DNA from: Candidatus Eiseniibacteriota bacterium
Lineage (GTDB): Bacteria > Eisenbacteria > RBG-16-71-46
Direction: 5' to 3'
Length of the DNA stretch: 52,057 bases
Assembly (NCBI GenBank): GCA_041492985.1
Contig: JBGPXY010000001.1
Span: forward strand, 1 to 52,057
Part shown: positions 4,547 through 21,896 of the stretch, piece after piece
Layout of the letters: every line of letters begins with the position of its first letter
Position numbering within the stretch: position 1 is the first letter of the stretch
Made by a program: the position numbers and the translations under genes
Notes under the pieces: model-generated
The model's input: the letters and a program-made list of their open reading frames with translations, nothing else
Databases searched by the model: none
What the model was told of the DNA's origin: nothing

Positions 4547-4621
4547 TGGAGGCGGCACCCGGATTCGAACCGGGGAATAAGGGTTTTGCAGACCCTCGCC
4601 TTACCACTTGGCTATGCCGCC
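4547..4621 (-). tRNA. tRNA-Cys (anticodon GCA), CCA encoded
   Basis: The minus strand reads GGCGGCA TA GCC AAGTGGTAA GGC G AGGGT CTGCAAA ACCCT TATTC CCCGG TTCGAAT CCGGG TGCCGCC T CCA. This folds as a cloverleaf with a GCA anticodon and the U73 discriminator characteristic of tRNA-Cys. Confidence 0.95.
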
Positions 4622-4948: not shown

Positions 4949-6388
4949 TCAGAGCTTTCGGAACTCCGCGGTTTCGCCCTGCGCGCCAGGATTGCCGCGG
5001 GAGAATCCACCTGGCCCGGCCGATCCCACCACGGTCTGATTCCCAGTTCGCGTGAAAGAACTGGCCGCGTCCTCGAGAATCGCGATGCTCGGGCCGCCGC
5101 CGCCGCCGCCGCCGGCACCGCCACGGCCGCCGGTACCGCCACGGCCGCCGTTTCCGCTTAGGCCCGTACGGCCTCCCAGGAAGTCGGACGCCTGGGCTCC
5201 GGGCTCGCCGCCGACGCCGAAGGTGCCGCCGGCGCCGCCGTCTCCGCCTGGGCCACCGCTGCCGCCATTGGCCGCAACGATGACGTTGTTCAAGAGCGAG
5301 CCGGCTGAGCCCTGCGCGAGCAAGACGCCGAAAGATCCGCCGCCGCCGGCGCCGCCGGCACCACCCTTTCCTCCTCCGCCCCCCGCTCCGCCGCCGCCGC
5401 CGCCCGGGCCGCAAATCAAAAGCGTTCCGACGCCGGCGCCTCCGCCCCCCCCTCCTCCTCCGTTCTGACCGTCGATAGCCTTGTTGCCACCTGCGGGCAC
5501 GTAGCCGCCGCCGACGAAGTTGCCGAAGGACCCGCCCGACGCTCCGTGCGCTCCGTCGCTAACCGGCTGGCCGAAGCCGCCCACGTCGCCGAAATGGGGT
5601 GAGACGAGGACCTGGCCGCCCCTGCCGCCCAAGCCGTAGCCGGGGCCAGAGCCCGGTCGGCCACTAGCACCATCGCCCAGGGTTCCATAGCCGCCGTCTC
5701 CACCACTGCTACCGATCGTGGAACTCTGGCCCGCCCCTCCATCGTTGGGGCATTCGCCGCCGTCGGCGCCCCTCGCCCCGGCGCCCGTCGCGTCGAGTCC
5801 AGCCGCGCCGGGGGGACCCGTCGTCCCCGCCTTGCCCCGGCCCGCGTAGATCCGGTTGTCCGCGATCACGACGCCCTGACTCCCGTTCAGGAGATGGACG
5901 CCGATCGAACTGCCGCCCGAGGCCGTGGCGTCGGCGCTGCGAATGGAGAAGCCGTCGATCAGGAGCGAATCGGCGTTGCTCCCTGACATCGCCGTCGGCC
6001 CGCCCGAGATGACGGTGGAGTCGGTCGCGAGATCGCGGACCCAGGTCGCGCCGCTGTAGCCGCCGTGGAGGCTCATTCTCGAGCGGAGCGTGATGCTGCC
6101 GGCATACGTTCCATAGGCGACGTAGATGTCGGCGCGCGTGTTCCCGGTGGCCGCGACGTCGATCGCCTTCTGAATGGTCTTGAATGGCGCCGGTTGGGTC
6201 CCAACATTCGCATCGTCGCCCGTCGCGGCGCTGACGAAGTAGTTTCCTGGCACGTTCGGGACCCCCGGCGGGCCCGGGTTATTCGGCGCGGTAGGAGATT
6301 GCTTGCTGCAGCCAGTCGCAACCCCCAGAGCGAGCAACGTCACGAACGCCAGGGCCAGCCTGGTGGCCTGATGGATTCTATGATTCAT
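4949..6388 (-). CDS. Lipoprotein with DUF1565/right-handed beta-helix-like N-domain and a long Gly-rich low-complexity C-terminal half
   Basis: RBS GAGGAGG. Signal plus lipobox MNHRIHQATRLALAFVTLLALGVATGC. NYFVSAATGDDANVGTQPAPFKTIQKAIDVA..ADIYVAYGTYAG is DUF1565-like. The C-terminal roughly 200 aa are dominated by GGxGG runs. Confidence 0.7.
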   Translation of the reverse strand: MNHRIHQATRLALAFVTLLALGVATGCSKQSPTAPNNPGPPGVPNVPGNYFVSAATGDDANVGTQPAPFKTIQKAIDVAATGNTRADIYVAYGTYAGSITLRSRMSLHGGYSGATWVRDLATDSTVISGGPTAMSGSNADSLLIDGFSIRSADATASGGSSIGVHLLNGSQGVVIADNRIYAGRGKAGTTGPPGAAGLDATGAGARGADGGECPNDGGAGQSSTIGSSGGDGGYGTLGDGASGRPGSGPGYGLGGRGGQVLVSPHFGDVGGFGQPVSDGAHGASGGSFGNFVGGGYVPAGGNKAIDGQNGGGGGGGGAGVGTLLICGPGGGGGGAGGGGGKGGAGGAGGGGSFGVLLAQGSAGSLLNNVIVAANGGSGGPGGDGGAGGTFGVGGEPGAQASDFLGGRTGLSGNGGRGGTGGRGGAGGGGGGGPSIAILEDAASSFTRTGNQTVVGSAGPGGFSRGNPGAQGETAEFRKL

Positions 6389-6489
6389 GGTTCTGCCTCC
6401 TCGCAGACGCCGAGGACTACTGCTCGCCGCCCTGACGAGCTCTCTACAAGTGAATGCGCAGATTGTAGTCCGAGTGCGCAGCGGGGGGT

Positions 6490-6590
6490 GCTTCGTTCCC
6501 CCTCCAGTCCTCTCAAACGACATCACCCCAGCGAGAACAGGTCGCTGGGGCGATTGGCTATCGGTCTGAGGCGATGTCGGTTGCGTGACT
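6490..6590 (+). repeat. Intergenic module, short variant (copy A')
   Basis: Hairpin CCCCAGCGA-GAACAGG-TCGCTGGGG (6526-6550), followed by CGATTGGCTATCGGTCTGAGGCGAT and GTGACTTTGGC. Shares the hairpin-proximal blocks with 16583-16636 and 40402-40450. Confidence 0.55.
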
Positions 6591-6740
6591 TTGGCACGGG
6601 TCCGGTGTAGAGCGAATTCAAAGCCGCAGCAACCTCTGGCGCCATGTGCGGCTCGAGGTCTCGAGCCGCGCGAAGAAGAGATCGCCGCCGCCGGTTCTCC
6701 CAACCCCGTCGCGTCCTCGCCACGGATCTCGTCTCCGACC

Positions 6741-6941
6741 CTGCTACCGTTTGCTACCGTCTCAGAGTCCCAACGAGTCCTCTCGTGTCCCCTCCTGTCC
6801 CCGCAAATGATATCGCCCCAGCGAGGCAACTCGTTGGGGCGATGGGGGGAATCACTTGGGGCGATGCGGCTTGCGCGCTCTCGTTGAAAAACAAGCCTCC
6901 AGGTTTTGCAGACCCTCGCCTTACCACTTGGCTATGCCGCC
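6741..6941 (+). repeat. Intergenic module, full-length copy B, ending in a 40-nt tRNA-Cys 5'-half copy
   Basis: Collinear with 16508-16694. Contains decamers CTGCTACCGT/TTGCTACCGT, GAGTCCTCTCGTGTCCC, decamers CGTGTCCCCT/CCTGTCCCCG, hairpin 1 at 6816-6839, two GGGGCGAT boxes, hairpin 2 at 6868-6897 and TTTGCAGACCCTCGCCTTACC... Confidence 0.7.
6902..6941 (-). pseudogene. tRNA-Cys 5'-half fragment (positions 1-41: acceptor 5' strand, D-arm, anticodon stem-loop); not a functional tRNA
   Basis: 40/40 identity to 4582-4621. Identity breaks inside the 3' strand of the anticodon stem. No T-arm or 3' acceptor strand follows. Confidence 0.8.
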
Positions 6942-7224: not shown

Positions 7225-7707
7225 TCAGGGCTGACGAGGCTCCGCCACGAAGAGCGTCCGCAGGTAGTCCACCACATTCTGGATCTGCCGTTCATTGAGC
7301 GTGCGCCCCCACGGCGGCATCCCCGTCGAGAGCCCGACCGCGCCGCCACCCGAGCGGATCGCGGTCACAAGATCGACATCGGAGTGCCGTGCCTGGAAGC
7401 TAGAATCGGCCAGTGAGCGCGGCCGTGGATCGAGGTTGTAGGCGTTGAACCCGTCGCCCTTCCCTGTTTCTCCGTGGCAGTTCAGGCAATAGTGGCGATA
7501 GAGCGCCCGGCCTTCGCGCGCGTTGTATCCGAGTTCTGGGATCGGCAACGTCGAGGCGGAGTAGATCGCGCTGACCCTGTCGACCGCCGTCGATTCGGCG
7601 GCTCCCGGGATCCGCGACGCGCGCTGGGCGGCCGTGCCCCGGCAGCCACCGGCCCAGGCCAGCACGGCAGCCATCACCACACTCGATGCGCGGAGGCCGC
7701 GCCTCAT
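7225..7707 (-). CDS. Monoheme class-I c-type cytochrome, probable lipoprotein
   Basis: 160 aa with lipobox-like LAWAGGC, the single heme motif CLNCHG and a distal MPPWG Met ligand motif. The ATGA overlap with the upstream gene indicates coupling. Confidence 0.8.
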   Translation of the reverse strand: MRRGLRASSVVMAAVLAWAGGCRGTAAQRASRIPGAAESTAVDRVSAIYSASTLPIPELGYNAREGRALYRHYCLNCHGETGKGDGFNAYNLDPRPRSLADSSFQARHSDVDLVTAIRSGGGAVGLSTGMPPWGRTLNERQIQNVVDYLRTLFVAEPRQP

Positions 7708-9782
7708 GGCCGCTTCCCTCCCGGATTCCCGGCCGACTTCGCGGACGAGGCCGCACCGTGCGCCGCAGTGAGTGACGGGAGCGACGCCACGTACGCGGTC
7801 AGTGCACGGGCATCGACGTCATCGAGACCATAGTCGGGCTCGCGTGCGTCCGGCCTCCAGCGCTGCGGGCCTTTCAGCCAAGAATAGATCCAACCCGTCT
7901 TCAACCGCTGGCCGGCACCGTCGAGCAGCGGACCGTAGAAGCCCCCCTTCCCACCGATCATGTGGCAGGCCTGGCAGCCGTAGCGTTCGTGGAAGAGCTT
8001 CCGTCCCCGCTCGACCTCCTCGGCCGCCGGCGCGGTCGCAAAGATCTCGCCGGGAATGCGATCGTCGCGCAAGACGTTCTCGGCAATGCTGGCGATGAAG
8101 GCCCGTTCCTCATCGGGCATCTGGAGCTGGATCATCCGTTCTTCGAGGATCGGTCTCACCGTGGTCGGCAGCTTGAGATAGCCGGCCAGCCAGCTCTCGC
8201 GTACCTTGCTCCCCTCGGCCGTGAGCGGCGCGGTGGAGATGTCGCCACCGGCTCCGCCGATCTGGTGACAGGACATGCAGCGATACTTGCGCACCAGCTC
8301 CCCGAACCGACCCGGAGGCGTGTAGGCCGTCTCGCGAGCCGGCACCTGATACGCCACCGGCACCGGCGCGCGCCCCATCGAGAGGAGCGCCGTCGTCAGC
8401 GCTTCCGTCTCGTGCTGGGTGAAGCCGAAGCGGGGCATCTTGAGCCCGTCGCGGAACGATCGCGGGTTCGTGACTTTGGCCGCGAGCCAGTCGGGCAGCG
8501 CGCGGGGCAGATCGTTCCGCCGCCCGAAATCGAGCCGGCCGACCGGCTTGTCCCCGATCCCGGTCAGCTCCGGGCCGATCGCCGCACCTTGGGCTTGGCC
8601 GCCGATCTGATGGCAGCCGTTGCAGCCCGAGCGGCGGAAGATGGTTTCCCCCGCCTGCACCACGCGATCGGCGGAGTGGAGGCCGGGCGCCGGGGCCGGC
8701 GCTGACGCATCCGTGAACTCGTCCATCATGTAGTCGGCGAGGTCGGCCACGTCCCGCGCACTGAAGTGATAGCGCGGCATCCGGGTGTCGGGATAGAACC
8801 GCTGGGGATCGGCGAGGAAGGCGAGGAGCCAGCGACGCGTCACTTTGGATCCCATCCCCGAGAGCTCCGGCGCGCTTCCATTCCCCCGCCCTTCGATGCT
8901 GTGGCACGAGATGCAGCGCGAGGTCGAAAACAGAAGCTTGCCATGCTCGGGATCACCCGGCGCGACCACGGCGGGCAAGTCAGCGTCCAGATCGACGCGC
9001 GGCGGGCGGCTCCACAGGAACGCAACCACCGAATCGATCTCCCCCGCCGAGAGCTTGAACTCCGGCATCCAGGTCGCCGGCCGCAGGGACCTGGGCGACT
9101 GGATCCACGCCGCGAGCCACGCCGGATTGGTCTTCTGCGACAGGCCGGCCAGATCGGGGGCTTCGCTCTTCCAGCCCTCGTGACCCGCGACCTTGTGGCA
9201 TCCGAAGCAGCCGACCCGCGTCATCAAGGCCCGTCCCTCCGAGAGCAGCGATGCTTCGGGCACGGCGTCGGCGAGATGGCAGCGGCCGCACGCCGCCTCG
9301 GTGTAGCGCACCGGCAGGATCGGGGAACTCCAGTCGCGCACCTGGCCGTGCGCCTCGGCCATGGTGGTCGCGCGCCCCTGCCCCAGGTGACAGGCGACGC
9401 ATCCGAACCGACCGATATCTCCCGGCGTGTGCGGCGTGCGTGGGTGCTGGCGGAACGGTTCGGGGGCCCCGGCCATGCGGGGCTCCTCGACGCCCAGGTG
9501 GCAGCTGACGCAGCGATCGACGTGGTCGTCGAGCGCCGGTAGCCAGATCTGCTGAACCCCCACCACGCGCGCGCGGGCCTGCTTCAACTCCTTGAGGGAG
9601 GCTGCGGAGCGAAGCAGCCGCTGGCGGTACTCGTTCTGGTAGCGACGGTACTCGCGGAAGTAGTCCTTGATCGGCGACACCGCCAGCACGACGAGAAAGG
9701 CCACGCTGGAGACGCCGAACCAGAACCAGAGCCGGTCGGACGACGGCCCGGGCGGGGTCACAGGTGCACGCCTCCCTGCCAT
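7704..9782 (-). CDS. Membrane-anchored octaheme c-type cytochrome
   Basis: 692 aa from [11 protein letters not shown], with an N-terminal TM helix LWFWFGVSSVAFLVVLAV. Eight CxxCH motifs: CVSCH, CVACH, CGRCH, CFGCH, CISCH, CNGCH, CMSCH, CQACH. The longer ORF-track start (10625) overlaps the cytochrome b genes in another frame, so I rejected it. Confidence 0.8.
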   Translation of the reverse strand: MAGRRAPVTPPGPSSDRLWFWFGVSSVAFLVVLAVSPIKDYFREYRRYQNEYRQRLLRSAASLKELKQARARVVGVQQIWLPALDDHVDRCVSCHLGVEEPRMAGAPEPFRQHPRTPHTPGDIGRFGCVACHLGQGRATTMAEAHGQVRDWSSPILPVRYTEAACGRCHLADAVPEASLLSEGRALMTRVGCFGCHKVAGHEGWKSEAPDLAGLSQKTNPAWLAAWIQSPRSLRPATWMPEFKLSAGEIDSVVAFLWSRPPRVDLDADLPAVVAPGDPEHGKLLFSTSRCISCHSIEGRGNGSAPELSGMGSKVTRRWLLAFLADPQRFYPDTRMPRYHFSARDVADLADYMMDEFTDASAPAPAPGLHSADRVVQAGETIFRRSGCNGCHQIGGQAQGAAIGPELTGIGDKPVGRLDFGRRNDLPRALPDWLAAKVTNPRSFRDGLKMPRFGFTQHETEALTTALLSMGRAPVPVAYQVPARETAYTPPGRFGELVRKYRCMSCHQIGGAGGDISTAPLTAEGSKVRESWLAGYLKLPTTVRPILEERMIQLQMPDEERAFIASIAENVLRDDRIPGEIFATAPAAEEVERGRKLFHERYGCQACHMIGGKGGFYGPLLDGAGQRLKTGWIYSWLKGPQRWRPDAREPDYGLDDVDARALTAYVASLPSLTAAHGAASSAKSAGNPGGKRP

Positions 9783-10459
9783 GGCCAGATCCACTTCCAC
9801 CCGGGACCGCGGAAGAAGGTGCCGATCACCGTAAGGATGACCGCCACGACGACGAACCAGGTCATGATCCAGTCGCTGAGCGTCACGCGGACGAGCCACC
9901 GCCGCCACGAAGCCGGACAGAGCGGCAGCGAGGGCATCACCATCGCCGCATAGAGCAGGACCGTCGGGACGAGCACCGGCCACACGCGCCAGGCCGCGAG
10001 GAAGGCCACGAGCGCCGCCACCACGGTGGTCAGCCACGACAGCCGGCGCCGCGCGGAGGCCTCGAGGAAGCCCCGGTCCTCCAGGTTCGTTCGGAAGTAC
10101 GGGATCACGACCATCGCGACCACAACCAGCCCGGGGATCAGCACGCCGGCGACGACCGGCGGGAAGTAGTGGAGCAACTCTTGAAGTCCGAGGAAGTACC
10201 AGGGCGCCTTTGCCGGGTTGGGCGTGTTGGTCGGATCGGCGATGCCTTCCAGCGGGGAGTCGAAGAACAGCGAGAGCAGCGCCATGGCGATCACGCACAC
10301 CTGCACCAGGATGATTTCGCGCAGGATCAGGTGTGGCGCGGTCATCACCGTCTCCTCGCGATCGACGAGGACGCGGGCCGCGGTGTCCGGGCGCAGGATC
10401 GCGAGCCGCTTGGGCGTCGCCGTCGCGTCGCTGCTCGGCTCGATTCGGTACTCGGTCAT
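9758..10459 (-). CDS. Cytochrome b C-terminal part / subunit IV-like (PetD-like), extended
   Basis: 233 aa from MTEYRIEPS. The PEWY-equivalent motif is [12 protein letters not shown]. It has several TM helices. The ATGA overlap joins it to the upstream cytochrome b gene. Confidence 0.8.
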
Positions 10460-11202
10460 GCGTCCTCCCCGCTTGGGCGAGCCGTGCGGCGCGAGCCAGC
10501 CAGGCCGCCATCCTTGCGGACCCGCCAGAGATGGAGCCCGACCAGGAGCACCAGGGCCAGCGGCAGGATGACGCAGTGGAGGACGTAGAAGCGCAGGAGG
10601 GCGTTCTCGCCGACGATGTTCCCACCCAGCAGCAGATAGCGGAACGGCGGCCCGAGGACCGGCATCGCCTTCACCATGTTCGTGCCGACCGAGACCGCCC
10701 AGATGGCGAGCTGATCCCACGGTAGCAGGTAGCCGGTGTAGCTCAGCAGCAGCGTGAGGAGCAGCAGAACCACGCCGATCACCCAGTTGAACTCGCGCGG
10801 CGGACGGTAGGCCTTGTGATAGAAGACGCGCAGCATGTGCAGGAAGACAATGAACACCATCGCGTGCGCGGGCCAGCGGTGCAGATTGCGAAGGAACATC
10901 CCGTTGCTCACGGTGAACTGCAGCTCCTTCATGTCGTGGTAAGCCTGCGGCACCGAGGGATGGTAGTAGAGCATCAGCAGCAGCCCTGTGGCGGTCAGGA
11001 TGGCGAACAGGATGAGGCCGATGGCGCCCAGGTAGTACGTGCTCGAGCTTTCGAGGCTGCGCCGCCGCACCTTCGCAGGGTGCAGATGCAGGAGGAGACT
11101 CTCCATCACCACCATGACCCGGTTGCGATTCGTAGCCCGGATCCCGTGGCGGACGATGGAGTGCCACACGCGGCTCTCGGTGATCGACGTCGGCAGCCTC
11201 AT
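10456..11202 (-). CDS. Cytochrome b6-like (N-terminal four-helix, heme-binding part of cytochrome b)
   Basis: 248 aa with [25 protein letters not shown] and [26 protein letters not shown], the paired His ligands on helices B and D. The [15 protein letters not shown] motif is present. Confidence 0.9.
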
Positions 11203-11212
11203 CTGGTCCTCA

Positions 11213-11692
11213 TCAGAATCGGTACGTGGTGCCGGCCGGAACCTCCACCGCCGTGTCCACGATCAGCTCTCCCTTTTCGGAGAGGCTCATCTGCAGCCAG
11301 CGGAGAGGGCGTGGCGCGGGACCGGCCACGACGTCGCCGGCGAGCGTGAACTGGCTGCCATGGCAGGGGCAGGCGATGATGTTCCGGTCTGGCTGGAAGC
11401 GCGTGATGCATCCGAGATGTGTGCACACGGCCGACAGCGCGCGAAATCCTTCCGTAAGCCGGATGACGTAGACGCGCTGTTCGACGTTGGTCACCACCGA
11501 CCCGACCTCGATCGCGTCGGGTGGCCCGGCGGAGAACGCCGTCGGCGGCTCGAACAGCACGCGCGGCCGCAGGAAATCGACCAGCACCACGCCGGCGCCT
11601 GCGGCCGCCGCTGCGCACGCCGCCAGCCCGGCGGCGACGCAGAAATCGCGGCGCGTGATCCCCGGTGCCTTGGCGGCGTCGGCATCAGACAT
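11213..11692 (-). CDS. Rieske [2Fe-2S] protein with Tat signal
   Basis: Twin-arginine [11 protein letters not shown]. Cluster boxes CTHLGC and CPCHGS. The start at MSDADAAK overlaps the stop of the upstream flavoprotein gene by 8 nt. Confidence 0.9.
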
Positions 11693-13559
11693 GTGCCGGC
11701 TCGAGCAGCTGGAACTGCTCCATGGTGATGGTCCCCGCCGGGCAGCGCTCGGCACACAGCCCACAGCGGATGCAGATCGTCTCGTCTTTGATCAGCGCCG
11801 TGCCCGCGCCGCCTCCCTGCGCGAGCAGCGCCGCCGCGGCCTCCCCGTGTTCGGCGCGCACGGCGTCCCCCATCGCCGGATCGGCGACGATCTCGGACAG
11901 GGGCACGAAGGTGATGCAGTTCTCCGGGCACACGTCGGCGCAGCCGCCGCACAGGATGCACTCCGTGCCCTGTTCCGGGTCTTCGTGGAACACGGTGTTG
12001 ACCCAGCAGTGGAGGCAGCGCGATGCCTCGAGCCGGGCCGACACCTCGGTGAAGCAGTGCTCGATCTCGGCGATGCCGACACGCCGCTCGATCGGCAGGA
12101 CGGGCGGTCGCTGGCGCGGCACGCCCTCGAAATCCAGCGCCCGCCGGTAACCCGGCAGCGGTTCGATGAACACCTCTACCGGCGGACCCGGGGTCGCGAC
12201 GCCACGCAGAAAGCCGTCAATCGATGCCGCGGCCCTCTTCCCGTCCGCAACGGCCTCGATCGCAATGCGTGGTCCGAACGCGGCGTCACCCCCGGCGTAG
12301 ATGCCGGGGGCCGTGGTGGCGAGGGTCGTCGGATCCACCTGGAGCGTGCCGCGCGGTGTGACCGCAACTCCGTCCTTCGGTCGCAGGAATGACAGATCAC
12401 AGGCCTGACCGATCGCAAGCACGATGGTGTCGGCTGCGATCGCCAGCTCGGTGCCTGGGACAAAGGTCGGGTTGAAGCGCCGCTGGCCATCGAAGACTGC
12501 GGAGCACTCGATGGTTTCGAGGCCTGTCACGCGACCCGCCTCGCCGAGGATGCGCTGCGGCCCGCGCCCGGCATGGATGACGATGCCCTCCCGCTGCGCC
12601 TCATGGATCTCGTCGCGGTCGGCCGGCATGGCCTCGAGAGATTCGAGACACACGATGTGGACCTCCTTGGCACCGAAGCGGATGGCCGAGCGTGCGACGT
12701 CGAACGCCGTGACGATGTTGAGGCCCGGATGGATGACCTCGTCCCGAAGGGGTGTCCGCAGGGCGGAGCGCGCCACGTCTACGGCCACGTTTCCACCGCC
12801 CACGACGAGCACGCGCCGGCCGAGCTCGACGCGGTAGCCCATGTTGACGTTGAGCAGGAAGTCGACGCCCTTGAGCACCCCGTCCAGGTCGGCGCCGGCG
12901 ATCTCGAGGTCGCGGCTGCGCTGCGCGCCCGGGGCGAGGAACACCGACCGAAAACCCTGCTCGCGCAGATCCGACAGGAGGAAATCGCGGCCCAGGCGCA
13001 TCCCCACCTTGAGCTCGACGCCGAGGTTCAGGATCGCGTTGATCTCGAGCTTGATCAGCTCGCGCGGCAGTCGATACTCTGGGATGCCGAGACGCAGCAT
13101 CCCCCCCGGCACCGCCTGGGCCTCGAAGATGGTCACCGGATATCCGAACAGCGCCAGGTCGTGGGCGGCCGCGAGCCCTGCCGGGCCCGCGCCGATGATC
13201 GCCACGCGGTCCTGCGGGTGGCGCAGCAGGCGCTCGCCGTAGATCTCCCGGAGCAGATCCACGTCCATCATGCTCTCGACGCCGAAACGCTCGGTGACGA
13301 AGCGTTTCAGCGCCCGGATGGCAATCGGCTCGTCGAGCGCCCCACGGCGGCATGCCGCCTCGCAGGGCGCGGCGCAGATCCGGCCGCAGATGGATGCGAG
13401 CGGATTCGGTCGTCGCGCCACGGCGTAGGCCTCGCGGTACTTCCCCTCCGCGATCAGCGCCACGTAGCGCCCGGCCTCGGTGCCGACTGGGCAAGCCTTG
13501 CAGCAGGGGAAGTTGCTCTCCAGCCAGGCCCGGTCGACCCGGCGATCAGACGTTGACAC
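11685..13559 (-). CDS. GltD-like (glutamate synthase small-subunit family) NAD(P)-dependent FAD/Fe-S oxidoreductase with C-terminal 2x[4Fe-4S] ferredoxin domain
   Basis: 624 aa. N-terminal Cys cluster CCKACP...CGRICAAPCEAAC. Dinucleotide folds IIGAGPAGLAAA and VVGGGNVAVDVA. C-terminal CILCGGCADVCP and CIRCGLCAERCP. GTG start. Confidence 0.85.
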   Translation of the reverse strand: MSTSDRRVDRAWLESNFPCCKACPVGTEAGRYVALIAEGKYREAYAVARRPNPLASICGRICAAPCEAACRRGALDEPIAIRALKRFVTERFGVESMMDVDLLREIYGERLLRHPQDRVAIIGAGPAGLAAAHDLALFGYPVTIFEAQAVPGGMLRLGIPEYRLPRELIKLEINAILNLGVELKVGMRLGRDFLLSDLREQGFRSVFLAPGAQRSRDLEIAGADLDGVLKGVDFLLNVNMGYRVELGRRVLVVGGGNVAVDVARSALRTPLRDEVIHPGLNIVTAFDVARSAIRFGAKEVHIVCLESLEAMPADRDEIHEAQREGIVIHAGRGPQRILGEAGRVTGLETIECSAVFDGQRRFNPTFVPGTELAIAADTIVLAIGQACDLSFLRPKDGVAVTPRGTLQVDPTTLATTAPGIYAGGDAAFGPRIAIEAVADGKRAAASIDGFLRGVATPGPPVEVFIEPLPGYRRALDFEGVPRQRPPVLPIERRVGIAEIEHCFTEVSARLEASRCLHCWVNTVFHEDPEQGTECILCGGCADVCPENCITFVPLSEIVADPAMGDAVRAEHGEAAAALLAQGGGAGTALIKDETICIRCGLCAERCPAGTITMEQFQLLEPAHV

Positions 13560-13566
13560 CGGGCGC

Positions 13567-14157
13567 CTACTTCTTCATCGCGAAGTCGGCCGTCGTGATC
13601 CCGGCGACCGTCACCGGTCTGGCAGCCTCCGCCTTGAACTTCGGGTGCCACACCTTCACTGTGTAGGCACCGTCCGGCAGATTCTTGATGGAGTAGGCGC
13701 CGGTCTTCTCGGTGACTGCGAACCAAGGGGTCGGCAGCGCGATGATGAAGCCCTCCATCTCGGCGTGCACCTTGCACAGGAGCGTGGCGTTGCACCGCGT
13801 CTTGAAGGTGTAGCTGCGAGTCTGACCTTGCGGCCAGCTTCCCAGATTGAACTGCTCGCAGCACTTGTCCGGCGAAAAGACGTTGTGGAGAACCTGGTCG
13901 CCATTGAGGAAGTCGACCGTGGTTCCCTGCTGGACCGGCAGGACGTGCGGCGTGAACACCAGGTTCTGCTGGTTCATCCTCGCGTGGGCCGTCGGGGCCG
14001 GGAACGTCCTCCCGGGAATCGCGTCGATGTAGACCACCGCGTCCCCATTGGTCTTCGCGCCCATGACCGTGACGACGCCCTTCAACTCGCCCGCCGGGGC
14101 GGCCGAAGCCGCCGCCAGCAGGATCACGGCGCATCCCACGCCAGATAGAACTCGCAT
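13567..14157 (-). CDS. Secreted cupredoxin (type-1 blue copper) fused to a CarboxypepD_reg-like beta-sandwich
   Basis: Carries a signal peptide. Putative copper ligands are H in VLHNVF and CKVHAEM (C-x2-H-x2-M). The C-terminus has TGAYSIKNLPDGAYTVKVWHPKF. Confidence 0.8.
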   Translation of the reverse strand: MRVLSGVGCAVILLAAASAAPAGELKGVVTVMGAKTNGDAVVYIDAIPGRTFPAPTAHARMNQQNLVFTPHVLPVQQGTTVDFLNGDQVLHNVFSPDKCCEQFNLGSWPQGQTRSYTFKTRCNATLLCKVHAEMEGFIIALPTPWFAVTEKTGAYSIKNLPDGAYTVKVWHPKFKAEAARPVTVAGITTADFAMKK

Positions 14158-14191
14158 ACCGTTTCCTTTCGTGAGTCGGCCGGTGACGAAA

Positions 14192-15514
14192 TCAGAACCC
14201 GATGATGACGCCGAGCGTGCCTCCCTCGTTCGTGAATTTGCCCCCCGGCTCCTTCACCCATGAGCTGGCGAGGAACGACTTGACGTTGGCACGGGCGAGG
14301 CCGTTGACGGTCAAGGACACCCGGTCGGTCTGCTCGTCGGTGATCTTGAACGACTCCCACCGCCCGGCCGGGATCAGCCACGGATATGCCACCCAGGACA
14401 GTTCCGCGAACTGGCTCTTGATCGAGACGTCGACGATCGTCGGATCGGCCACGAACAGCCGGTCGTCCTTGCGGTCCGTATACCCAGCGCGGGCCATCAC
14501 GTCGTGGTAGTTCACGGCCACGTCACCCCCGGCCATCCGAAATGGATCCTGTGAGTTGGGATCCAGCGGATCTCCTCCCTCGAGCAGGCCCTTGCCCTTG
14601 TAAATGAAGCCGGAGAGCGAGAGGGAGGTTTCGCTCCAGGGCTGCGGGTTGGCGGGCAGCGCCGCCTCGGCGGCGCCGCTGGGAGCTCCGTCGAACGGCA
14701 GCCCCCCGAACTTGTAGGCCAGGCGGGCGTACACATCCTTCGAATGGTCGCCCAGGCTTCCCGACCCCTCGACCAGACCGGCGTTGTAGAGGACGCGGTG
14801 CTGGAGCATCCCGTAGGCCTCGAGGCCCTGCTGGAAGCCGTCCGGGGCCCAGGGGTTGTCGCCGACGGGCTGTGTTAGGACCAGCGGTTCCTGGTTCAGG
14901 ATGGAGCGATGCGAGGACACCAGCATGATCCCCGGTTCGAAAGAGCCGACCTTGAACTGCAGCGCGGGCGAATCGAGAGGGCGTACCAGGAGGTTGACCC
15001 GCTCCATCTCGGTGGCGATCTCGCCCCCGTCGCGGGCAAACACAACCGATCCCCAGAAGGAGAAATGCTCGTCGAGGGTCCCGGCGCCCAGAATCTCGAG
15101 CTCGCCGCCCATGCCGCCGAAGGTGACGGTCTTGGTCGTGGGATCGTAGTCGACCGTGCTCGTATAGAGGACGGCGACGGGCGGCATTCCGGGGATCTCT
15201 CCCGGCCATACCGCGTGCGGCCAGAGCTTCTTGTAGCCTTCCGCGCCCAGAGAGACGGGCGGGATCTTGGTCATCGCCGCATCGTTGCCGGCCGGGAACC
15301 GATAGCCGTTCTGCCGGAACGCTTCACCGAAGGGAGTCAGGGCGGGGATCGCAACGTGGCAGGTTTGACAGCTCGTCTGGTATTTCCGCGCGAATGCCGG
15401 AATCGTATAGGCGTTCCGCGGCGCGAGGAGCGCCGCCGAAAACAGCACGATCAACGCGAGCGCGAACACCGTGCGCACGTCGAAAACCACCCGCTTCGAT
15501 CCTTCTCGTGACAT
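14192..15514 (-). CDS. Outer-membrane beta-barrel-like protein with an N-terminal single c-heme motif (fused cytochrome-porin architecture, Cyc2-like in organisation)
   Basis: RBS GAGGAGGGG. Has an N-terminal hydrophobic signal and one CxxCH (FARKYQTSCQTCH) about 50 aa in. About 380 aa of alternating beta-strand-like sequence follow. The C-terminus is ...GVIIGF, and a terminal Phe is the OMP beta-signal. Confidence 0.65.
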   Translation of the reverse strand: MSREGSKRVVFDVRTVFALALIVLFSAALLAPRNAYTIPAFARKYQTSCQTCHVAIPALTPFGEAFRQNGYRFPAGNDAAMTKIPPVSLGAEGYKKLWPHAVWPGEIPGMPPVAVLYTSTVDYDPTTKTVTFGGMGGELEILGAGTLDEHFSFWGSVVFARDGGEIATEMERVNLLVRPLDSPALQFKVGSFEPGIMLVSSHRSILNQEPLVLTQPVGDNPWAPDGFQQGLEAYGMLQHRVLYNAGLVEGSGSLGDHSKDVYARLAYKFGGLPFDGAPSGAAEAALPANPQPWSETSLSLSGFIYKGKGLLEGGDPLDPNSQDPFRMAGGDVAVNYHDVMARAGYTDRKDDRLFVADPTIVDVSIKSQFAELSWVAYPWLIPAGRWESFKITDEQTDRVSLTVNGLARANVKSFLASSWVKEPGGKFTNEGGTLGVIIGF

Positions 15515-15651: not shown

Positions 15652-16302
15652 CTAGAGGAGATGTGTGCGGAGCGCCAGCGAGACCGCTTCGAGCTTGCTG
15701 TGAACGTCGAGCTTGCGGAGGATGTTCTGGACGTGGTTGCGCGTCGTGGCGACACTGATGAAAAGTGAGTCGGCGATGCCCTGAGTGCTGGCGCCCTCAG
15801 CCAGGAGCCGCAGGATCTGGATCTCTCGCGAGGTCAGGGCCGGGGATGTCGCCGACGGCGCATCACCGGTCACGGGTCGGGACACCGGCGGCGTGGGCTG
15901 ATCGGTCAGGATCCGACGGATCAGCGCGCTGGCCTCGCGCTGGCGGTCGACTTTCGCGAGGAAGTGGACGAGCGTGTACTGGCGTGGGCGCGGCCCCGGC
16001 AACACCACGATCGAGAAGTGGGCCGGTATGAGCTCGCCCGACTCGGTACGGACGTCGAGTTCGAAGCGCCGCGCCGTTTCGTGCCGTTCGACCATGAACG
16101 TCAGGGAGCACTGGCGGTCGCAGAAGCGGTTGCCAAAGACATCACGACCACAGATGATCTCGTGGCAGGACTTGCCGAGCACCTGGGAGGCGTGGTAGCC
16201 GAGCAACTCCTGGGCACCCTTGTTCCAGATGGCGATGCGCCCCTTCTCGTCAGTCGCAAAAGCGGCGCCGCCAGCGCGGGCGACCACATCCAGTGGGTCC
16301 AC
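15652..16302 (-). CDS. PAS-domain LuxR/GerE-family transcriptional regulator
   Basis: 216 aa with a GTG start. N-terminal PAS (GRIAIWNKGAQELLGY...) carries a Cys cluster CHEIIC...C..QC. The C-terminus has LTSREIQILRLLAEGASTQGIADSLFISVATTRNHVQNILRKL. Confidence 0.85.
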   Translation of the reverse strand: MDPLDVVARAGGAAFATDEKGRIAIWNKGAQELLGYHASQVLGKSCHEIICGRDVFGNRFCDRQCSLTFMVERHETARRFELDVRTESGELIPAHFSIVVLPGPRPRQYTLVHFLAKVDRQREASALIRRILTDQPTPPVSRPVTGDAPSATSPALTSREIQILRLLAEGASTQGIADSLFISVATTRNHVQNILRKLDVHSKLEAVSLALRTHLL

Positions 16303-16507: not shown

Positions 16508-16694
16508 TTGCTACAATTTGCTACCGTCTCAACTTCCTCATGAGTCCTCTCGTGTCCCTTCGTGTCCCCTCGAAGGATATCTCCCCAGCGAAGGCAACTC
16601 GCTGGGGCGATTGGGCTATCGGTCTGGGGCGATATCGCTCGCGGGCTCGGCGTTGAAGAAAATCGCGCCGAAATTTGCAGACCCTCGCCTTACC
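16508..16694 (+). repeat. Intergenic module, full-length copy C, ending in a 21-nt tRNA-Cys fragment
   Basis: Collinear with 6741-6941. Decamers at 16508-16527 and 16551-16570. Hairpin 1 at 16583-16607, hairpin 2 at 16647-16671, and TTTGCAGACCCTCGCCTTACC at 16674-16694. Confidence 0.7.
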
Positions 16695-16830: not shown

Positions 16831-18014
16831 TCAGACCTCCATCACCGCGGCCGTAATGACGTTGATGAACAGGTCTCCACCCCAGTGCGGTGACCCCACC
16901 CTCGCCCCTTGGTAGCTTTGAACCGAGAAATAGCACCCGACGATCTCATGAACCGGGTCCACCCATAAGGACATGCCGCCGGAGCCGCCATGGCAGAACG
17001 AGGCTGGCGAGTAAAGCGATCCGTCTCGCAGACCTCTCTTGGTCCCATGGATGTCCCAACCGAGACCCCACCCCGCCTCGGGGAACAGCTCGTCGCCGTC
17101 CCTTGCCGGGATCCCGGGAATCTGGTTTCGCGTCATCTCGGTAACGGACGCAGGGCTCAAGATCCTGACATCGCCGCGGCAGCCGCGATCGAGAAACATC
17201 TGGGCGAAGATCGCCATATCCATCGCAGTCGAGTACGCGGCGCCGTTGGCCCAGGGGGTGTGCTGAAATGTCGGGGTTTCGAGCCCGGGCTCTGAACCGA
17301 GGCTCACGGCCCACCCCGCCTCCATCCGGCGACGCACCAGTCGGGATCGCGAAGACTCGCGTACGCCGAATGACGTGTCGATCATGCGCAGTGGCTCAAA
17401 GATTCTCTTCGCTGCGAACTCCGACACGGATTGCCCGCTCACCCGGCGCACGATCTCGCCCAGCAGGCGATAGCCATAGTCGCAGTAGGACATCTCTACA
17501 CCCGGCGGCTTCGACAATGGCGCCTGATAGCGCAACCCCAACCACTCGTGCATGTAGGGGGGCTGGTCGCCCACGGGGGGAGGAGCGGCGAGCGTGCCGC
17601 GATTCTGCTTCACATACGTTTCGAGCTGCTCATCGTTGAACCCCGAGGTGTGCGTCAGGAGATGGTGGACCATGACGGAGCTCTTGCCTTCGCCCTGGAA
17701 CTCCGGGATGTATTCGGCCACCGGTCGGTTGAGTCCCAGCAACCCGTCTTCCACCAGAATCATGACCGCGGTGGCCGCAATCGGCTTGGTGATGGAAGCC
17801 AGGGGGAAGATCGTGTCCCTCTCGACCCGTGGAGCACCGGGCTCGGGCGTCAGGTGCCCGTGTGCCTCGTGAAGGACAACGATGCCGCGTCGCGCGGCAA
17901 GAACCACCAGCGCTGGCGTGCGCTCTTGCGCTACCAGTCGCGCCGCCAGATCTGCGGCGACACGCACGCGATCGGGCGACATCCCGACCTCTTCGGGGGT
18001 TCCCGTGCGCAGGC

Positions 18015-18018
<4 letters not shown>
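16831..18018 (-). CDS. Serine hydrolase, beta-lactamase/transpeptidase-like fold (class C / EstB-like)
   Basis: 395 aa with the SxxK motif ASITKP. The TTG start overlaps the kinase stop as TTGA. The N-terminus MSLRTGTPEEVGMSPDRVR parallels the paralog MKLRDGDPEEAGMSAERIR. Confidence 0.85.
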
Positions 18019-21662
<3,644 letters not shown>

Positions 21663-21896
21663 CCCTGAACCTCCTGCACCAGCCGGCGTTCTTCAGGATC
21701 CGACGCGCGATGCGACGAGGCTCGCACATGGAGCGGGACGTCGCAATGCGAGACACCGACACGCGCTGGTGCCGATGCCGGTGGGCGCTGGGGCATCGGA
21801 CCGGAGCCCGGCGCTGCGTTCGGAGTCGGGGAACGGAGCATTCGCCACTCGGGCGGGTCCCCGCTACGCTACGATCGTCTGACGCGGAGGTGGCTG

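What the first reader, a model, noticed from the sequence alone, without database searches (positions are those of the whole stretch)
7225..15514. Tight 8-gene operon joining a heme-porin, a cupredoxin, a GltD-like flavoprotein, a Rieske/cytochrome b complex and nine further c-hemes
Gene order on the minus strand is:
1. OM beta-barrel with one CxxCH (14192-15514)
2. cupredoxin (13567-14157)
3. GltD-like NAD(P)/FAD/Fe-S protein (11685-13559)
4. Rieske (11213-11692)
5. cytochrome b6-like (10456-11202)
6. subunit-IV-like (9758-10459)
7. octaheme c (7704-9782)
8. monoheme c (7225-7707)

Gaps are 34, 7 and 10 nt, and four junctions overlap, so co-translation is likely.

In Acidithiobacillus ferrooxidans, an outer-membrane cytochrome (Cyc2), a cupredoxin (rusticyanin) and a bc1 complex running in reverse carry Fe(II) electrons up to NAD+. 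In anammox Planctomycetes, Rieske/cyt b complexes with extra multiheme subunits and a GltD-like NAD(P) oxidoreductase subunit have been proposed to couple quinol oxidation to NAD(P)+ reduction.

This operon combines both sets of parts in one transcription unit. That suggests a conduit from an extracellular or periplasmic donor or acceptor to the quinone pool and NAD(P). I am not aware of this combination being described, but I cannot search.
Basis: partly seen in the sequence, partly recalled or inferred. Interest (0 to 1): 0.75.

Follow-up and report, generated by a model that had tools for sequence, protein, structure and literature searches.

The report
Iron-porin operon wired to bc complex
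A conserved eight-gene operon found in many uncultured soil and sediment bacteria joins an outer-membrane iron-oxidase-type haem porin and a blue copper protein to an anammox-type Rieske/cytochrome b complex with an NAD(P) flavoprotein, which looks like an undescribed route between outside iron, the quinone pool and NAD(P)H.

Summary
There are eight minus-strand genes from 15514 to 7225, with gaps of 34, 7 and 10 nt, four overlaps and ten CxxCH motifs.

What each gene encodes:
- **g1:** meets the published sequence definition of the Cyc2 fused cytochrome-porin family and models as a 16-strand barrel.
- **g2:** a type-1 copper cupredoxin with a C-terminal Ig-like domain.
- **g3 to g7:** a Rieske/cytochrome b6/subunit-IV complex with an octahaem c and a GltD/NfnB-like NAD(P) flavoprotein. 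This is the architecture of the Kuenenia (anammox) complexes. The Qo motif is APWY.
- **g8:** a monohaem c.

The order is not chance. Of 54 related genome loci with enough flank, 33 keep the full cluster, under labels including Eisenbacteria, Acidobacteriota, Bacteroidota, Ignavibacteriota and Calditrichaceae; a contig-truncated Krumholzibacteriia locus keeps g1-g7. Ten loci, mostly labelled Myxococcota or Deltaproteobacteria, keep it without the flavoprotein. Three replace the bc module with an ACIII-like module.

The most likely function is an electron conduit between soluble extracellular iron and the menaquinone and NAD(P) pools. I favour uptake from Fe(II), but the direction is unproven.

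The parts are known. I found no paper describing this operon. I rate it a new variant of a known kind, of moderately high interest.

The parts
15652..16302 (-). PAS + LuxR/GerE transcription regulator directly upstream of the operon
   Evidence: Pfam PAS_9 and GerE. A homologous regulator sits in the same position in the Eisenbacteria-, Acidobacteriota- and Krumholzibacteriia-labelled loci and the unlabelled metagenome locus L006: L002, L003, L006, L007, L010, L011, L013 and L016.
14192..15514 (-). g1: Cyc2-family fused monohaem cytochrome-porin (outer membrane)
   Evidence: It has a signal peptide, then (A/T)IPAFARKY-QTS-CQTCH-VAI-PAL, which matches PXFAR[Q/K][T/Y], CXXCH and PXL as defined in PMC8406198. 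AF2 gives 16 strands with pLDDT about 85-95 in the barrel. Foldseek hits 16-strand porins, including OprP 2o4v and OprO 4rjw. The protein ends in Gly-Phe; the terminal residue is Phe in most homologues but Leu or Met in others.
13567..14157 (-). g2: periplasmic type-1 copper cupredoxin with a C-terminal CarboxypepD_reg (Ig-like) domain
   Evidence: Pfam Copper-bind and CarboxypepD_reg. The ligand set H91, C128-x2-H131-x2-M134 is conserved at 97-100% in 75 homologues. The AF2 model (pLDDT 82) matches plastocyanin, amicyanin and pseudoazurin. JGI names the homologues 'plastocyanin'.
11685..13559 (-). g3: cytoplasmic GltD/NfnB-like NAD(P)H-FAD-[4Fe-4S] flavoprotein with an extra C-terminal 2x[4Fe-4S] domain
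   Evidence: Pfam and NCBIfam. It has no hydrophobic segment. The best solved relatives are NfnABC/NfnA/Stn (9bov/9bp5, 9n5u, 8oh5) and NfnB; 9bp5 is the template reported for Kuste4570. Its stop overlaps the Rieske start by 8 nt.
11213..11692 (-). g4: Rieske [2Fe-2S] subunit with a Tat leader and a membrane anchor
   Evidence: Pfam Rieske and UCR_Fe-S_N. The CTHLGC and CPCHGS boxes are invariant in 52 homologues. The best PDB hit is the Kuenenia Rieske protein 9rk4 at 106 bits, against 65 bits for the next hit.
10456..11202 (-). g5: four-helix cytochrome b6-type subunit (two b haems, no haem cN site)
   Evidence: Pfam Cytochrome_B. The best PDB hits are cytochromes b6. Cys35 of b6 aligns to Tyr57 here. 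The four His ligands are 97-100% conserved. The nearest NCBIfam family is ExtP, at 265 bits against a cut-off of 290.
9758..10459 (-). g6: subunit-IV-like membrane subunit carrying the Qo motif APWY, with extra C-terminal helices
   Evidence: Pfam Cytochrom_B_C. KAPWYFLG is 98-100% conserved in 42 homologues. There are 4-5 hydrophobic segments. APWY defines a cytochrome b clade in PMC4122944.
7704..9782 (-). g7: membrane-anchored periplasmic octahaem cytochrome c (4 c7/NrfB-like haems plus 4 class-I domains)
   Evidence: 8 CxxCH motifs. It has one N-terminal TM segment. Pfam and NCBIfam support the domain calls; ExtS scores 100.4 bits, but only over residues 279-465.
7225..7707 (-). g8: small monohaem class-I cytochrome c, probably a lipoprotein
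   Evidence: Cytochrome_CBB3 and Cytochrom_C. It has one CxxCH motif. Its leader ends in the lipobox-like sequence WAGGC.
6742..6941 (.). Distal copy of a roughly 190-nt direct repeat bracketing the unit; it contains the exact 5' 40 nt of tRNA-Cys (whether it belongs to the system is uncertain)
16509..16694 (.). Proximal copy of the same repeat, 79% identical, containing a 21-nt tRNA-Cys fragment (whether it belongs to the system is uncertain)

Best explanation
The operon encodes one self-contained electron-transfer chain that spans the whole cell envelope.

**Outer membrane.** A Cyc2-type porin holds a single haem.

**Periplasm.** Three carriers are encoded: a blue-copper cupredoxin, a small monohaem cytochrome c and a membrane-anchored octahaem cytochrome c.

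**Inner membrane.** There is a Rieske/cytochrome b6/subunit-IV complex of the APWY, anammox-like type. A soluble NAD(P)H-FAD-FeS protein is predicted to dock on its cytoplasmic face.

**Direction I favour.** Electrons flow inward. Soluble Fe(II), or a similar small reductant, is oxidised at the Cyc2 haem. The electron passes through the cupredoxin and c-haems to the high-potential Rieske centre. At the Qo site it reduces menaquinone together with a low-potential electron delivered through the two b haems. That second electron comes from NAD(P)H through the flavoprotein, helped by the membrane potential. In effect this is the anammox-type quinol bifurcation run backwards. The same machine run forwards would make NAD(P)H from quinol while passing the other electron to the cupredoxin and cytochrome pool.

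**Shown:** component identities, topology, cofactor motifs, and conservation and modularity of the cluster.

**Inferred:** physical complex formation, iron as the substrate, the direction of flow and the coupling to NAD(P).
For: **Component identities.** These rest.

**Cyc2 motif match.** g1 matches the definition in PMC8406198. The only demonstrated activity of that family is Fe(II) oxidation.

**Conserved, co-diverging cluster.**
- 33 of 54 loci keep the full cluster. Ten keep the bc module without the flavoprotein. The g1-g2 pair is adjacent in 51 of 54 loci.
- Identity of g1 across loci tracks that of g2 to g8, with rho between 0.63 and 0.85.

**Module swap.** In L001, L055 and L083 the Rieske/cyt b/flavoprotein block is replaced by a pentahaem, molybdopterin-like, FeS and NrfD (ACIII-like) block. 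In L001 and L055, Cyc2, the cupredoxin, the octahaem and the monohaem are all retained. This points to a job of connecting the outer-membrane and periplasmic wire to the quinone pool.

**Qo motif.** The APWY motif is 98-100% conserved. [quoted passage not shown] The reverse-running bc1 of A. ferrooxidans also has Pro at that position.

**Rieske tuning.** The Rieske second-sphere residues are Ser and Phe or Tyr, as in the Kuenenia proteins measured at +303 and +335 mV. That fits a high-potential copper and class-I haem chain.

**Precedents.** The A. ferrooxidans Cyc2, rusticyanin and bc1 uphill pathway and the anammox NAD(P)-linked Rieske/cyt b proposal.
Against: - There are no expression, biochemical or physiological data. 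All carriers of the cluster are uncultured MAGs, mostly of heterotrophic lineages.
- The function of divergent Cyc2 homologues is explicitly called uncertain in PMC8406198.
- The nearest curated families for cytochrome b, subunit IV and part of the octahaem are the Geobacter ExtP, ExtQ and ExtS families. Geobacter transfers electrons outward.
- The anammox complexes of the same architecture are proposed to run forward, from quinol to NAD(P)H.
- The energetic benefit of spending NAD(P)H to lift Fe(II) electrons into the quinone pool is unclear (my own reasoning).
- Ten loci, mostly labelled Myxococcota or Deltaproteobacteria, lack the flavoprotein, so it is not essential to the conduit.
- Docking of g3 onto cytochrome b was not tested.
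Confidence: 0.5

Rival explanations
1. Electrons flow outward, with anammox-style bifurcation. Menaquinol from heterotrophic metabolism is oxidised at Qo. The high-potential electron leaves through the Rieske centre, the c-haems, the cupredoxin and Cyc2 to a soluble extracellular oxidant such as chelated Fe(III) or Mn(III). The low-potential electron goes through the b haems and FeS clusters to FAD and reduces NAD(P)+.
For: The architecture is the same as the Kuenenia complexes for which exactly this bifurcation is proposed. With menaquinone, a Rieske centre near +300 mV makes the low-potential branch reducing enough for NAD(P)+ (argument in PMC12954380). The cytochrome b, subunit IV and cytochrome c subunits are most similar to the ExtP, ExtQ and ExtS families of Geobacter, an outward electron-transferring organism whose ext cluster also contains a porin. 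The host lineages are mostly heterotrophs.
Against: No Cyc2-family protein has been shown to act as a reductase. A single haem inside a narrow porin can reach only soluble species. Most Fe(III) forms at neutral pH have too low a potential to pull a chain sitting near +300 mV (my reasoning). The APWY motif has been linked to reverse operation. The variants without the flavoprotein show that NAD(P) coupling is dispensable.
Confidence: 0.27
2. The conduit handles a redox-active solute other than iron, for example Mn(II)/Mn(III), humic quinones, or a sulfur, selenium or arsenic species. The Cyc2-like porin has been recruited as a general outer-membrane redox gate.
For: Cyc2 homologues are very divergent (17-30% identity between clusters) and their function outside the verified clades is uncertain. 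The related Geobacter cluster has been tied to selenite and tellurite reduction. g1 has an unusually long and very conserved stretch after the haem motif.
Against: All diagnostic Cyc2 motifs are retained. No enzyme specific for another substrate is encoded in the operon or is conserved next to it.
Confidence: 0.13
3. Two functionally separate units, a Cyc2-cupredoxin pair and a respiratory Rieske/cyt b complex, are merely co-transcribed or co-transferred and do not exchange electrons.
For: The g1-g2 pair occurs alone in about 8 of 54 loci. The unit in the window is bracketed by direct repeats, which hints at mobility.
Against: The order is kept in 43 of 54 loci across several phyla, and in the window the junctions are tight or overlapping. 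The components co-diverge. In L001 and L055 the quinone module is swapped while the periplasmic haem proteins are kept. The periplasmic carriers have no other partner encoded nearby.
Confidence: 0.1

Closest known systems
Cyc2 fused cytochrome-porin iron oxidases (A. ferrooxidans Cyc2, Mariprofundus Cyc2PV-1, Leptospirillum Cyt572)
   Same: g1 shares a signal peptide, a single CXXCH motif, the PXFAR[Q/K][T/Y] motif before the haem site, the PXL motif after it, a length over 365 aa and a 16-strand porin that resembles OprO and OprP.
   Different: g1 sits in an operon with a Rieske/cyt b complex and an NAD(P) flavoprotein. It comes from uncultured, mostly heterotrophic phyla. Its cluster assignment (1, 2 or 3) and its activity are untested. 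It has a long, very conserved post-haem segment.
Kuenenia stuttgartiensis Rieske/cytochrome b complexes Kuste4569-4574 and Kustd1480-1485
   Same: Both have a b6-like four-helix cytochrome b, a separate subunit IV, a multihaem c in place of cytochrome f, and a cytoplasmic GltD/Nfn-like NAD(P) oxidoreductase with an FeS wire. The window's Rieske protein is most similar to the Kuenenia one (106 bits), and the Ser and Phe/Tyr tuning residues match.
   Different: The window's cytochrome b lacks the CxGG cysteine, so it has no haem cN. There is no HAO-like octahaem. The operon additionally carries Cyc2, a cupredoxin and a monohaem c. The hosts have no anammoxosome.
Acidithiobacillus ferrooxidans rus/pet 'uphill' Fe(II) pathway (Cyc2, rusticyanin, CycA1, bc1, NDH-1)
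   Same: The logic is the same: an outer-membrane Cyc2, a periplasmic cupredoxin, c-type cytochromes and a Rieske/cyt b complex with Pro at the second Qo position.
   Different: In A. ferrooxidans the genes are split between two operons. The cupredoxin here has an amicyanin-like C-x2-H-x2-M loop and an added Ig-like domain, so it is not rusticyanin. The complex here is split b6-type with an octahaem, not bc1 with cytochrome c1. NAD(P) is addressed by a dedicated flavoprotein rather than by complex I. The setting is neutrophilic.
Geobacter extHIJKLMNOPQS cluster
   Same: One cluster combines an outer-membrane porin, multihaem cytochromes, a Rieske protein, a short cytochrome b, a small membrane subunit and a lipoprotein cytochrome c. 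ExtP, ExtQ and ExtS are the best NCBIfam matches for g5, g6 and g7.
   Different: Scores are below the family cut-offs for ExtP and ExtQ. The Geobacter porin ExtI has no haem and is not of Cyc2 type. The Geobacter cluster has no cupredoxin and no flavoprotein, and it does have rhodanese and a selenoprotein cytochrome.
Alternative complex III linked to Cyc2 in neutrophilic iron oxidisers and 'Ca. Tenderia' models
   Same: In relatives L001, L055 and L083 the same Cyc2-cupredoxin front end is followed by an ACIII-like module. This matches models in which ACIII carries Fe(II) or cathode electrons uphill.
   Different: The window itself has the Rieske/cyt b version. In the published models the genes are not in one operon with Cyc2.

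Membership tests
Cyc2 fused cytochrome-porin family (definition of Keffer et al. 2021, PMC8406198) | N-terminal signal peptide followed by a single CXXCH motif | tested here: met
   There is a hydrophobic leader at residues 13-31 and one CxxCH at C49.
Cyc2 fused cytochrome-porin family (definition of Keffer et al. 2021, PMC8406198) | (A)XPXFAR[Q/K][T/Y] motif just upstream of the haem site, and PXL four residues after it | tested here: met
   The sequence is TIPAFARKY-QTS-CQTCH-VAI-PAL. P39, F41, R43, Y45, C49, C52, H53, P57 and L59 are invariant in 27 homologues.
Cyc2 fused cytochrome-porin family (definition of Keffer et al. 2021, PMC8406198) | Length of at least 365 aa with a roughly 16-strand beta-barrel porin fused to the cytochrome domain | tested here: met
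   The protein is 440 aa. AF2 gives 16 long strands. Foldseek matches 16-strand porins including OprP and OprO.
Cyc2 fused cytochrome-porin family (definition of Keffer et al. 2021, PMC8406198) | Score above cut-off with a FeGenie Cyc2 HMM and placement in cluster 1, 2 or 3 | not testable with these tools
The paper's supplements hold no sequences.
Cyc2 fused cytochrome-porin family (definition of Keffer et al. 2021, PMC8406198) | Fe(II) oxidase activity | not testable with these tools
   This needs biochemistry.
Type-1 (blue) copper cupredoxins | His...Cys...His...Met ligand set in a cupredoxin beta-sandwich | tested here: met
   H91, C128, H131 and M134 are 97-100% conserved. Pfam Copper-bind scores above its cut-off. 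The AF2 model matches plastocyanin, amicyanin and pseudoazurin.
Rusticyanin | Rusticyanin-type sequence and ligand loop (C-x4-H-x4-M, recalled from memory) | tested here: not met
   The loop here is C-x2-H-x2-M. The only family matches are generic plastocyanin and halocyanin ones.
Anammox-type NAD(P)-linked Rieske/cytochrome b complex (Kuste4569-4574, Kustd1480-1485) | Four-helix b6-like cytochrome b with a separate subunit-IV-like protein and a Rieske subunit | tested here: met
   The Rieske protein's best PDB hit is the Kuenenia protein 9rk4.
Anammox-type NAD(P)-linked Rieske/cytochrome b complex (Kuste4569-4574, Kustd1480-1485) | Hexa- or octahaem cytochrome c in place of cytochrome f or c1 | tested here: met
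   g7 has 8 CxxCH motifs and one TM anchor.
Anammox-type NAD(P)-linked Rieske/cytochrome b complex (Kuste4569-4574, Kustd1480-1485) | Operon-encoded cytoplasmic NAD(P) oxidoreductase of GltD/Nfn type with a chain of FeS clusters | tested here: met
   g3 domains. The best solved relative is 9bov/9bp5, and 9bp5 is the template used for Kuste4570. g3 is soluble and overlaps the Rieske gene.
Anammox-type NAD(P)-linked Rieske/cytochrome b complex (Kuste4569-4574, Kustd1480-1485) | CxGG motif for haem cN in cytochrome b | tested here: not met
   Cys35 of b6 aligns with Tyr57 (YLGA). The single Cys lies next to a helix-D His ligand.
Anammox-type NAD(P)-linked Rieske/cytochrome b complex (Kuste4569-4574, Kustd1480-1485) | Physical association of the flavoprotein with the membrane subunits | not testable with these tools
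   No multimer prediction or complexome data were available.
APWY clade of cytochrome b complexes (Kao and Hunte 2014) | Qo motif APWY in place of PEWY or PDWY | tested here: met
   KAPWYF is 98-100% conserved in 42 homologues. The clade is described. Phylogenetic placement was not done.
Geobacter ExtOPQS module (NCBIfam NF040969, NF040970, NF040971) | Scores above the curated cut-offs | tested here: not met
   ExtP scores 265 against 290. ExtQ scores 52 against 150. ExtS scores 100.4 against 100, but only over residues 279-465 of a 692-aa protein.

The most novel reading that the evidence does not exclude
The operon encodes a single supercomplex that couples oxidation or reduction of extracellular iron directly to quinone-based electron bifurcation or confurcation with NAD(P)(H). 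That would make it an 'iron:quinone:NAD(P) bifurcating conduit'. It would give widespread heterotrophic soil, peat and groundwater phyla an iron-linked energy metabolism unlike any described Fe(II)-oxidation or metal-reduction pathway. It would also put the anammox bifurcation hypothesis in reach of far more tractable organisms.
Probability: 0.2. Interest if true: 0.85.

Novelty: new variant of a known kind. Interest (0 to 1): 0.62.

Why it matters
**Iron cycling.** Cyc2 is used as a marker for neutrophilic iron oxidation. How its electrons reach the quinone and NAD(P) pools is unresolved, and its role in the many non-classical phyla that carry it is unknown. Here the downstream partners are written into the operon itself and are conserved across several phyla. 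That gives a concrete, testable pathway.

**Anammox bioenergetics.** The result shows that the unusual NAD(P)-linked Rieske/cytochrome b architecture, debated for anammox bacteria, is widespread. It also ties that architecture to a defined periplasmic and outer-membrane partner chain, which offers new systems for testing quinol-based bifurcation.

**Modularity.** Exchange of the bc module for an ACIII-like module behind the same Cyc2-cupredoxin front end is direct comparative evidence that the two complex-III types do equivalent jobs in this setting.

Tried and rejected
1. **Genomic island at tRNA-Cys.** The regulator-plus-operon unit is flanked by roughly 190-nt direct repeats that contain tRNA-Cys 5' fragments. 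No integrase lies between them, and relatives show no tRNA next to the cluster. I kept this as a side observation only.
2. **Extra haem b bridging to the flavoprotein.** The Kuenenia AF3 models predict such a haem. His39 and His41 of the window's cytochrome b are conserved whether or not GltD is present, so they do not discriminate. Residues R14, H19 and R28 differ between GltD+ and GltD- sets, but that split coincides with phylogeny.
3. **Direct comparison with reference Cyc2 sequences or FeGenie HMMs.** This was not possible. The supplements of PMC8406198 hold identity tables, not sequences.
4. **Rfam scan of the window.** It found only the tRNA.
5. **Promoter and terminator scans.** They were uninformative, at or below the shuffle expectation.
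6. **Pfam annotation of the rest of the window.** It found no oxidase, reductase or carbon-fixation genes that would fix the direction of electron flow.
7. **Literature searches for the combination.** I tried Cyc2 with Rieske, cytochrome b, glutamate synthase, plastocyanin and the relevant phyla. No paper described this operon. The library holds only open-access papers and preprints, so absence is not proof.
8. **ORF calling in the 'Cyc2+cupredoxin only' loci.** It was too noisy at this G+C content to name their downstream partners reliably.

Full report
**Observation.** The junctions are 34, 7, -8, 10, -4, -25 and -4 nt. The CxxCH counts are 1 (g1), 8 (g7) and 1 (g8). Pfam and NCBIfam confirm the following:
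- a weak but above-threshold Copper-bind domain plus a CarboxypepD_reg domain in g2;
- a GltD-type Fer4_20/Pyr_redox_2 flavoprotein with an extra C-terminal 2x[4Fe-4S] domain (g3);
- a Tat-exported Rieske protein (g4);
- a cytochrome b6-type protein (g5);
- a subunit-IV-like protein (g6);
- an octahaem made of four c7/NrfB-like haems and four class-I domains (g7);
- a monohaem class-I cytochrome (g8).

g1 matches no curated family. A PAS-LuxR regulator gene lies directly upstream. A simple hydropathy scan puts g1 and g2 behind signal peptides. It shows g3 as fully soluble, g4 with a Tat motif and an anchor, g7 with a single N-terminal anchor, and g8 with a lipobox-like leader. The rest of the 52-kb window encodes unrelated functions: kinases, beta-lactamase-family proteins, an RND efflux system and a P-type ATPase.

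**The outer-membrane protein is a Cyc2-family cytochrome-porin.** Keffer et al. (PMC8406198) define Cyc2 by five features: a signal peptide, one CXXCH, an AXPXFAR[Q/K][T/Y] motif just upstream, a PXL motif four residues downstream, and a fused 16-strand porin of at least 365 aa.
- g1 reads ...TIPAFARKY-QTS-CQTCH-VAI-PAL..., and these residues are invariant in 27 homologues that go down to 37% identity.
- An AlphaFold2 model has a mean pLDDT of 75.5, with most of the barrel at 80-95 and the haem domain low, as expected without the cofactor. It has 16 long strands.
- Foldseek finds 16-strand general porins. These include OprP (2o4v) and OprO (4rjw), the same templates reported for Cyc2 from M. 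ferrooxydans PV-1.
- A profile of the family finds 4293 representative clusters at E<=1e-3 in 1.84 billion proteins.
- FeGenie-based surveys have already reported Cyc2 homologues in Eisenbacteria, Acidobacteriota, Calditrichota and related MAGs (PMC9769843).

I could not run the FeGenie HMMs or compare g1 with reference Cyc2 sequences.

**The second protein is a genuine blue-copper protein.** His91, Cys128, His131 and Met134 are 97-100% conserved in 75 homologues. The C-x2-H-x2-M spacing is amicyanin-like; that comparison is from my own knowledge. The AF2 model (pLDDT 82) matches plastocyanin, amicyanin and pseudoazurin over its N-terminal domain. A CarboxypepD_reg Ig-like domain follows. The family has more than 3400 members in the protein collection, many named 'plastocyanin' by JGI.

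**The inner-membrane module is an anammox-type, APWY-clade Rieske/cytochrome b complex.**
- *Rieske protein.* Its best solved relative is 9rk4, at 106 bits against 65 bits for the next hit. 9rk4 is a Kuenenia stuttgartiensis Rieske protein; by its HGSKY box and lack of Trp I take it to be Kuste4569. The cluster boxes are invariant. The second-sphere positions are Ser (100%) and Phe or Tyr (73% and 27%), as in the two Kuenenia proteins measured at +303 and +335 mV.
- *Cytochrome b.* It aligns best with cytochromes b6. It has Tyr where b6 has the haem-cN cysteine, so this complex differs from the Kuenenia ones in lacking haem cN.
- *Subunit IV.* It carries KAPWYF, 98-100% conserved. Kao and Hunte (PMC4122944) define an 'APWY clade' spanning several phyla, including Planctomycetes. 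[quoted passage not shown]
- *Flavoprotein.* Its closest solved relatives are the GltD-like NADPH modules of NfnABC (9bov/9bp5), NfnA, Stn and NfnB. 9bp5 is the template that fitted Kuste4570.

PMC12954380 describes the Kuenenia complexes as b6-like cytochrome b, subunit IV, a hexa- or octahaem c and a cytoplasmic NAD(P) oxidoreductase. It supports the proposal that they bifurcate quinol electrons to NAD(P)+ and a high-potential acceptor. Dibrova et al. (PMC5600118) had already noted that short cytochromes b of their subfamily G lie next to such oxidoreductase genes 'in many other cases'. The bc-plus-flavoprotein unit is therefore not new in itself.

**Conservation.** The g1 family returns more than 900 hits, all unnamed. 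A scan of one genome per GTDB species found 486 relatives, and I examined the best 80 loci plus six more from metagenome contigs. tblastn with the window's nine proteins shows the following among the 54 distinct loci with at least 8.5 kb downstream of the Cyc2 gene:
- 33 have Cyc2, cupredoxin, GltD-like protein, Rieske, cytochrome b, subunit IV, octahaem and monohaem in the same order. The MAG labels are Eisenbacteria, Acidobacteriota (including Vicinamibacteria), Bacteroidota, Ignavibacteriota and Calditrichaceae. A truncated Krumholzibacteriia locus shows g1-g7.
- 10 have the Rieske/cyt b module and an octahaem homologue (weakly matched in three loci), but no flavoprotein and no monohaem. 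Most carry Myxococcota or Deltaproteobacteria labels.
- 11 have only the Cyc2-cupredoxin pair within 12 kb.

Truncated loci show the same order as far as they reach. The identity of g1 to the window co-varies with that of every other component, with Spearman rho between 0.63 and 0.85. Flanking genes are not conserved. The cluster therefore behaves as a self-contained module that is probably transferred horizontally.

**A natural module swap.**
- In L001, whose Cyc2 is 79% identical to g1, the Cyc2 and cupredoxin genes are followed by a pentahaem c7-type cytochrome, a Tat-exported molybdopterin-family protein, an FeS protein, an NrfD-type membrane protein, a small membrane protein and a tetrahaem. 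This is an ACIII/Qrc-like quinone module. Homologues of the octahaem (38%) and the monohaem (49%) come next.
- L055 repeats the full ACIII-like block. L083 repeats only its first four genes, with no octahaem or monohaem homologue detected. L055 shows the start of a GltD gene after the block.

In L001 and L055, then, the outer-membrane and periplasmic parts (g1, g2, g7, g8) are constant, and the quinone-coupled membrane complex is exchangeable. This is the strongest comparative argument that the operon's job is to connect the Cyc2-cupredoxin wire to the quinone pool.

**Mechanism.** What is shown is the identity, topology and cofactor motifs of ten c-haems, one type-1 Cu, one Rieske cluster, two b haems, about four [4Fe-4S] clusters and one FAD/NAD(P) site. 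[quoted passage not shown] What is inferred is that they form one chain, that iron is the substrate, and which way electrons flow.

I favour inward flow from Fe(II), for four reasons:
- Fe(II) oxidation is the only activity demonstrated for Cyc2-family proteins.
- The chain mirrors the A. ferrooxidans Cyc2, rusticyanin, cytochrome c and bc1 uphill route.
- The APWY motif has been associated with reverse operation.
- ACIII, the alternative module, is the complex invoked for uphill transfer in neutrophilic iron oxidisers and in 'Ca. Tenderia'.

In that mode the flavoprotein would feed NAD(P)H electrons through the b haems to meet the Rieske electron at Qo, which is the reverse of the anammox bifurcation.

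The forward mode is a serious rival. In it, quinol is split between NAD(P)+ and the cupredoxin/Cyc2 branch. That is what is proposed for the homologous Kuenenia complexes. The nearest curated families for g5 to g7 are the Geobacter ExtP, ExtQ and ExtS families, from an organism that exports electrons and whose ext cluster also joins a porin to a Rieske/cyt b unit. The variants without the flavoprotein show that NAD(P) coupling is an add-on, not the core.

**Novelty.** Each part belongs to a known kind. What I could not find in the searchable literature is their fusion into one conserved operon, the breadth of its distribution, or the bc/ACIII swap behind a constant Cyc2-cupredoxin front end. 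The library covers only open-access papers and preprints. I therefore rate this a new variant of a known kind, not a categorically new system.

**Side observations.**
- The regulator-plus-operon unit is bracketed by 79%-identical direct repeats of about 190 nt. Each begins with a fragment of the nearby tRNA-Cys gene: 40 nt exact in one copy and 21 nt in the other. Each also contains a REP-like hairpin that occurs twice more in the window.
- No integrase is present, and relatives lack a tRNA next to the cluster. Mobility is therefore suggested but not shown.

Noticed in passing
window 6742-6941 and 16509-16694; tRNA-Cys at 4547-4621 (minus strand): Direct repeats of about 190 nt, 79% identical and 9767 nt apart, bracket the regulator plus the 8-gene unit. 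On the minus strand each starts with a piece of tRNA-Cys(GCA): the exact 5' 40 nt at 6902-6941, and 21 nt at 16674-16694. No integrase lies between them. They could be degenerate att-like sites or a repeat element fused to a tRNA fragment.
   Followed up: partly
window 6493-6585, 6783-6847, 16550-16614, 40383-40448: A REP-like palindromic element (ATCGCCCCAGCGAG...CTCGCTGGGGCGAT) occurs at least four times in intergenic DNA. It has no Rfam match.
   Followed up: partly
L001 11980-20916; L055 7211-16000; L083 12119-16800: In these relatives the Rieske/cyt b/flavoprotein block is replaced by a pentahaem, molybdopterin-like, FeS and NrfD (ACIII/Qrc-like) block behind the same Cyc2-cupredoxin pair. 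L001 and L055 keep the octahaem and monohaem homologues; L083 shows neither. L055 appears to start a GltD gene after the block.
   Followed up: partly
L002 (same contig as L012) 11400-13900: In one Eisenbacteria MAG the cupredoxin and GltD-like genes are truncated (55% and 66% coverage). A 220-aa ORF on the opposite strand lies between them. This may be a decaying or rearranged copy of the cluster.
   Followed up: no
L010: A MAG labelled Bacteroidota carries the whole cluster, including the regulator, at 68-88% protein identity to the window (whose other closest relatives are Eisenbacteria-labelled), far closer than other Bacteroidota copies (about 40%). This is either recent horizontal transfer or a binning error.
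   Followed up: no
L006 1610-3285: Ferritin, AhpC-type peroxiredoxin and Fur genes lie about 7 kb upstream of the cluster in one metagenome contig. This is a possible iron and oxidative-stress link, or a coincidence.
   Followed up: no
L004 15372-15866: A cNMP-binding-domain gene is inserted between the cytochrome b and subunit-IV genes in one relative. That locus uses a histidine kinase and a sigma-54 response regulator in place of the PAS-LuxR regulator.
   Followed up: no
window 10456-11202 (g5), residue 210: The single cysteine of cytochrome b sits directly after the first helix-D haem ligand (His209-Cys210). It is 92-100% conserved across homologues. Its role is unknown, and it is not the haem-cN cysteine.
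   Followed up: no
window 4949-6829 (minus strand): A large Gly-rich ORF with an internal signal-peptide-like segment has no Pfam match. It lies between the tRNA-Cys gene and the distal repeat copy.
   Followed up: no
window 16831-23078: Two paralogous beta-lactamase-family genes (16831-18018 on the minus strand, 21897-23078 on the plus strand) flank a 1215-aa ORF whose N-terminus reads like a Ser/Thr protein kinase (not run through Pfam). Two further kinase-PD40 genes lie at 26265-28982 and 47889-50564.
   Followed up: no
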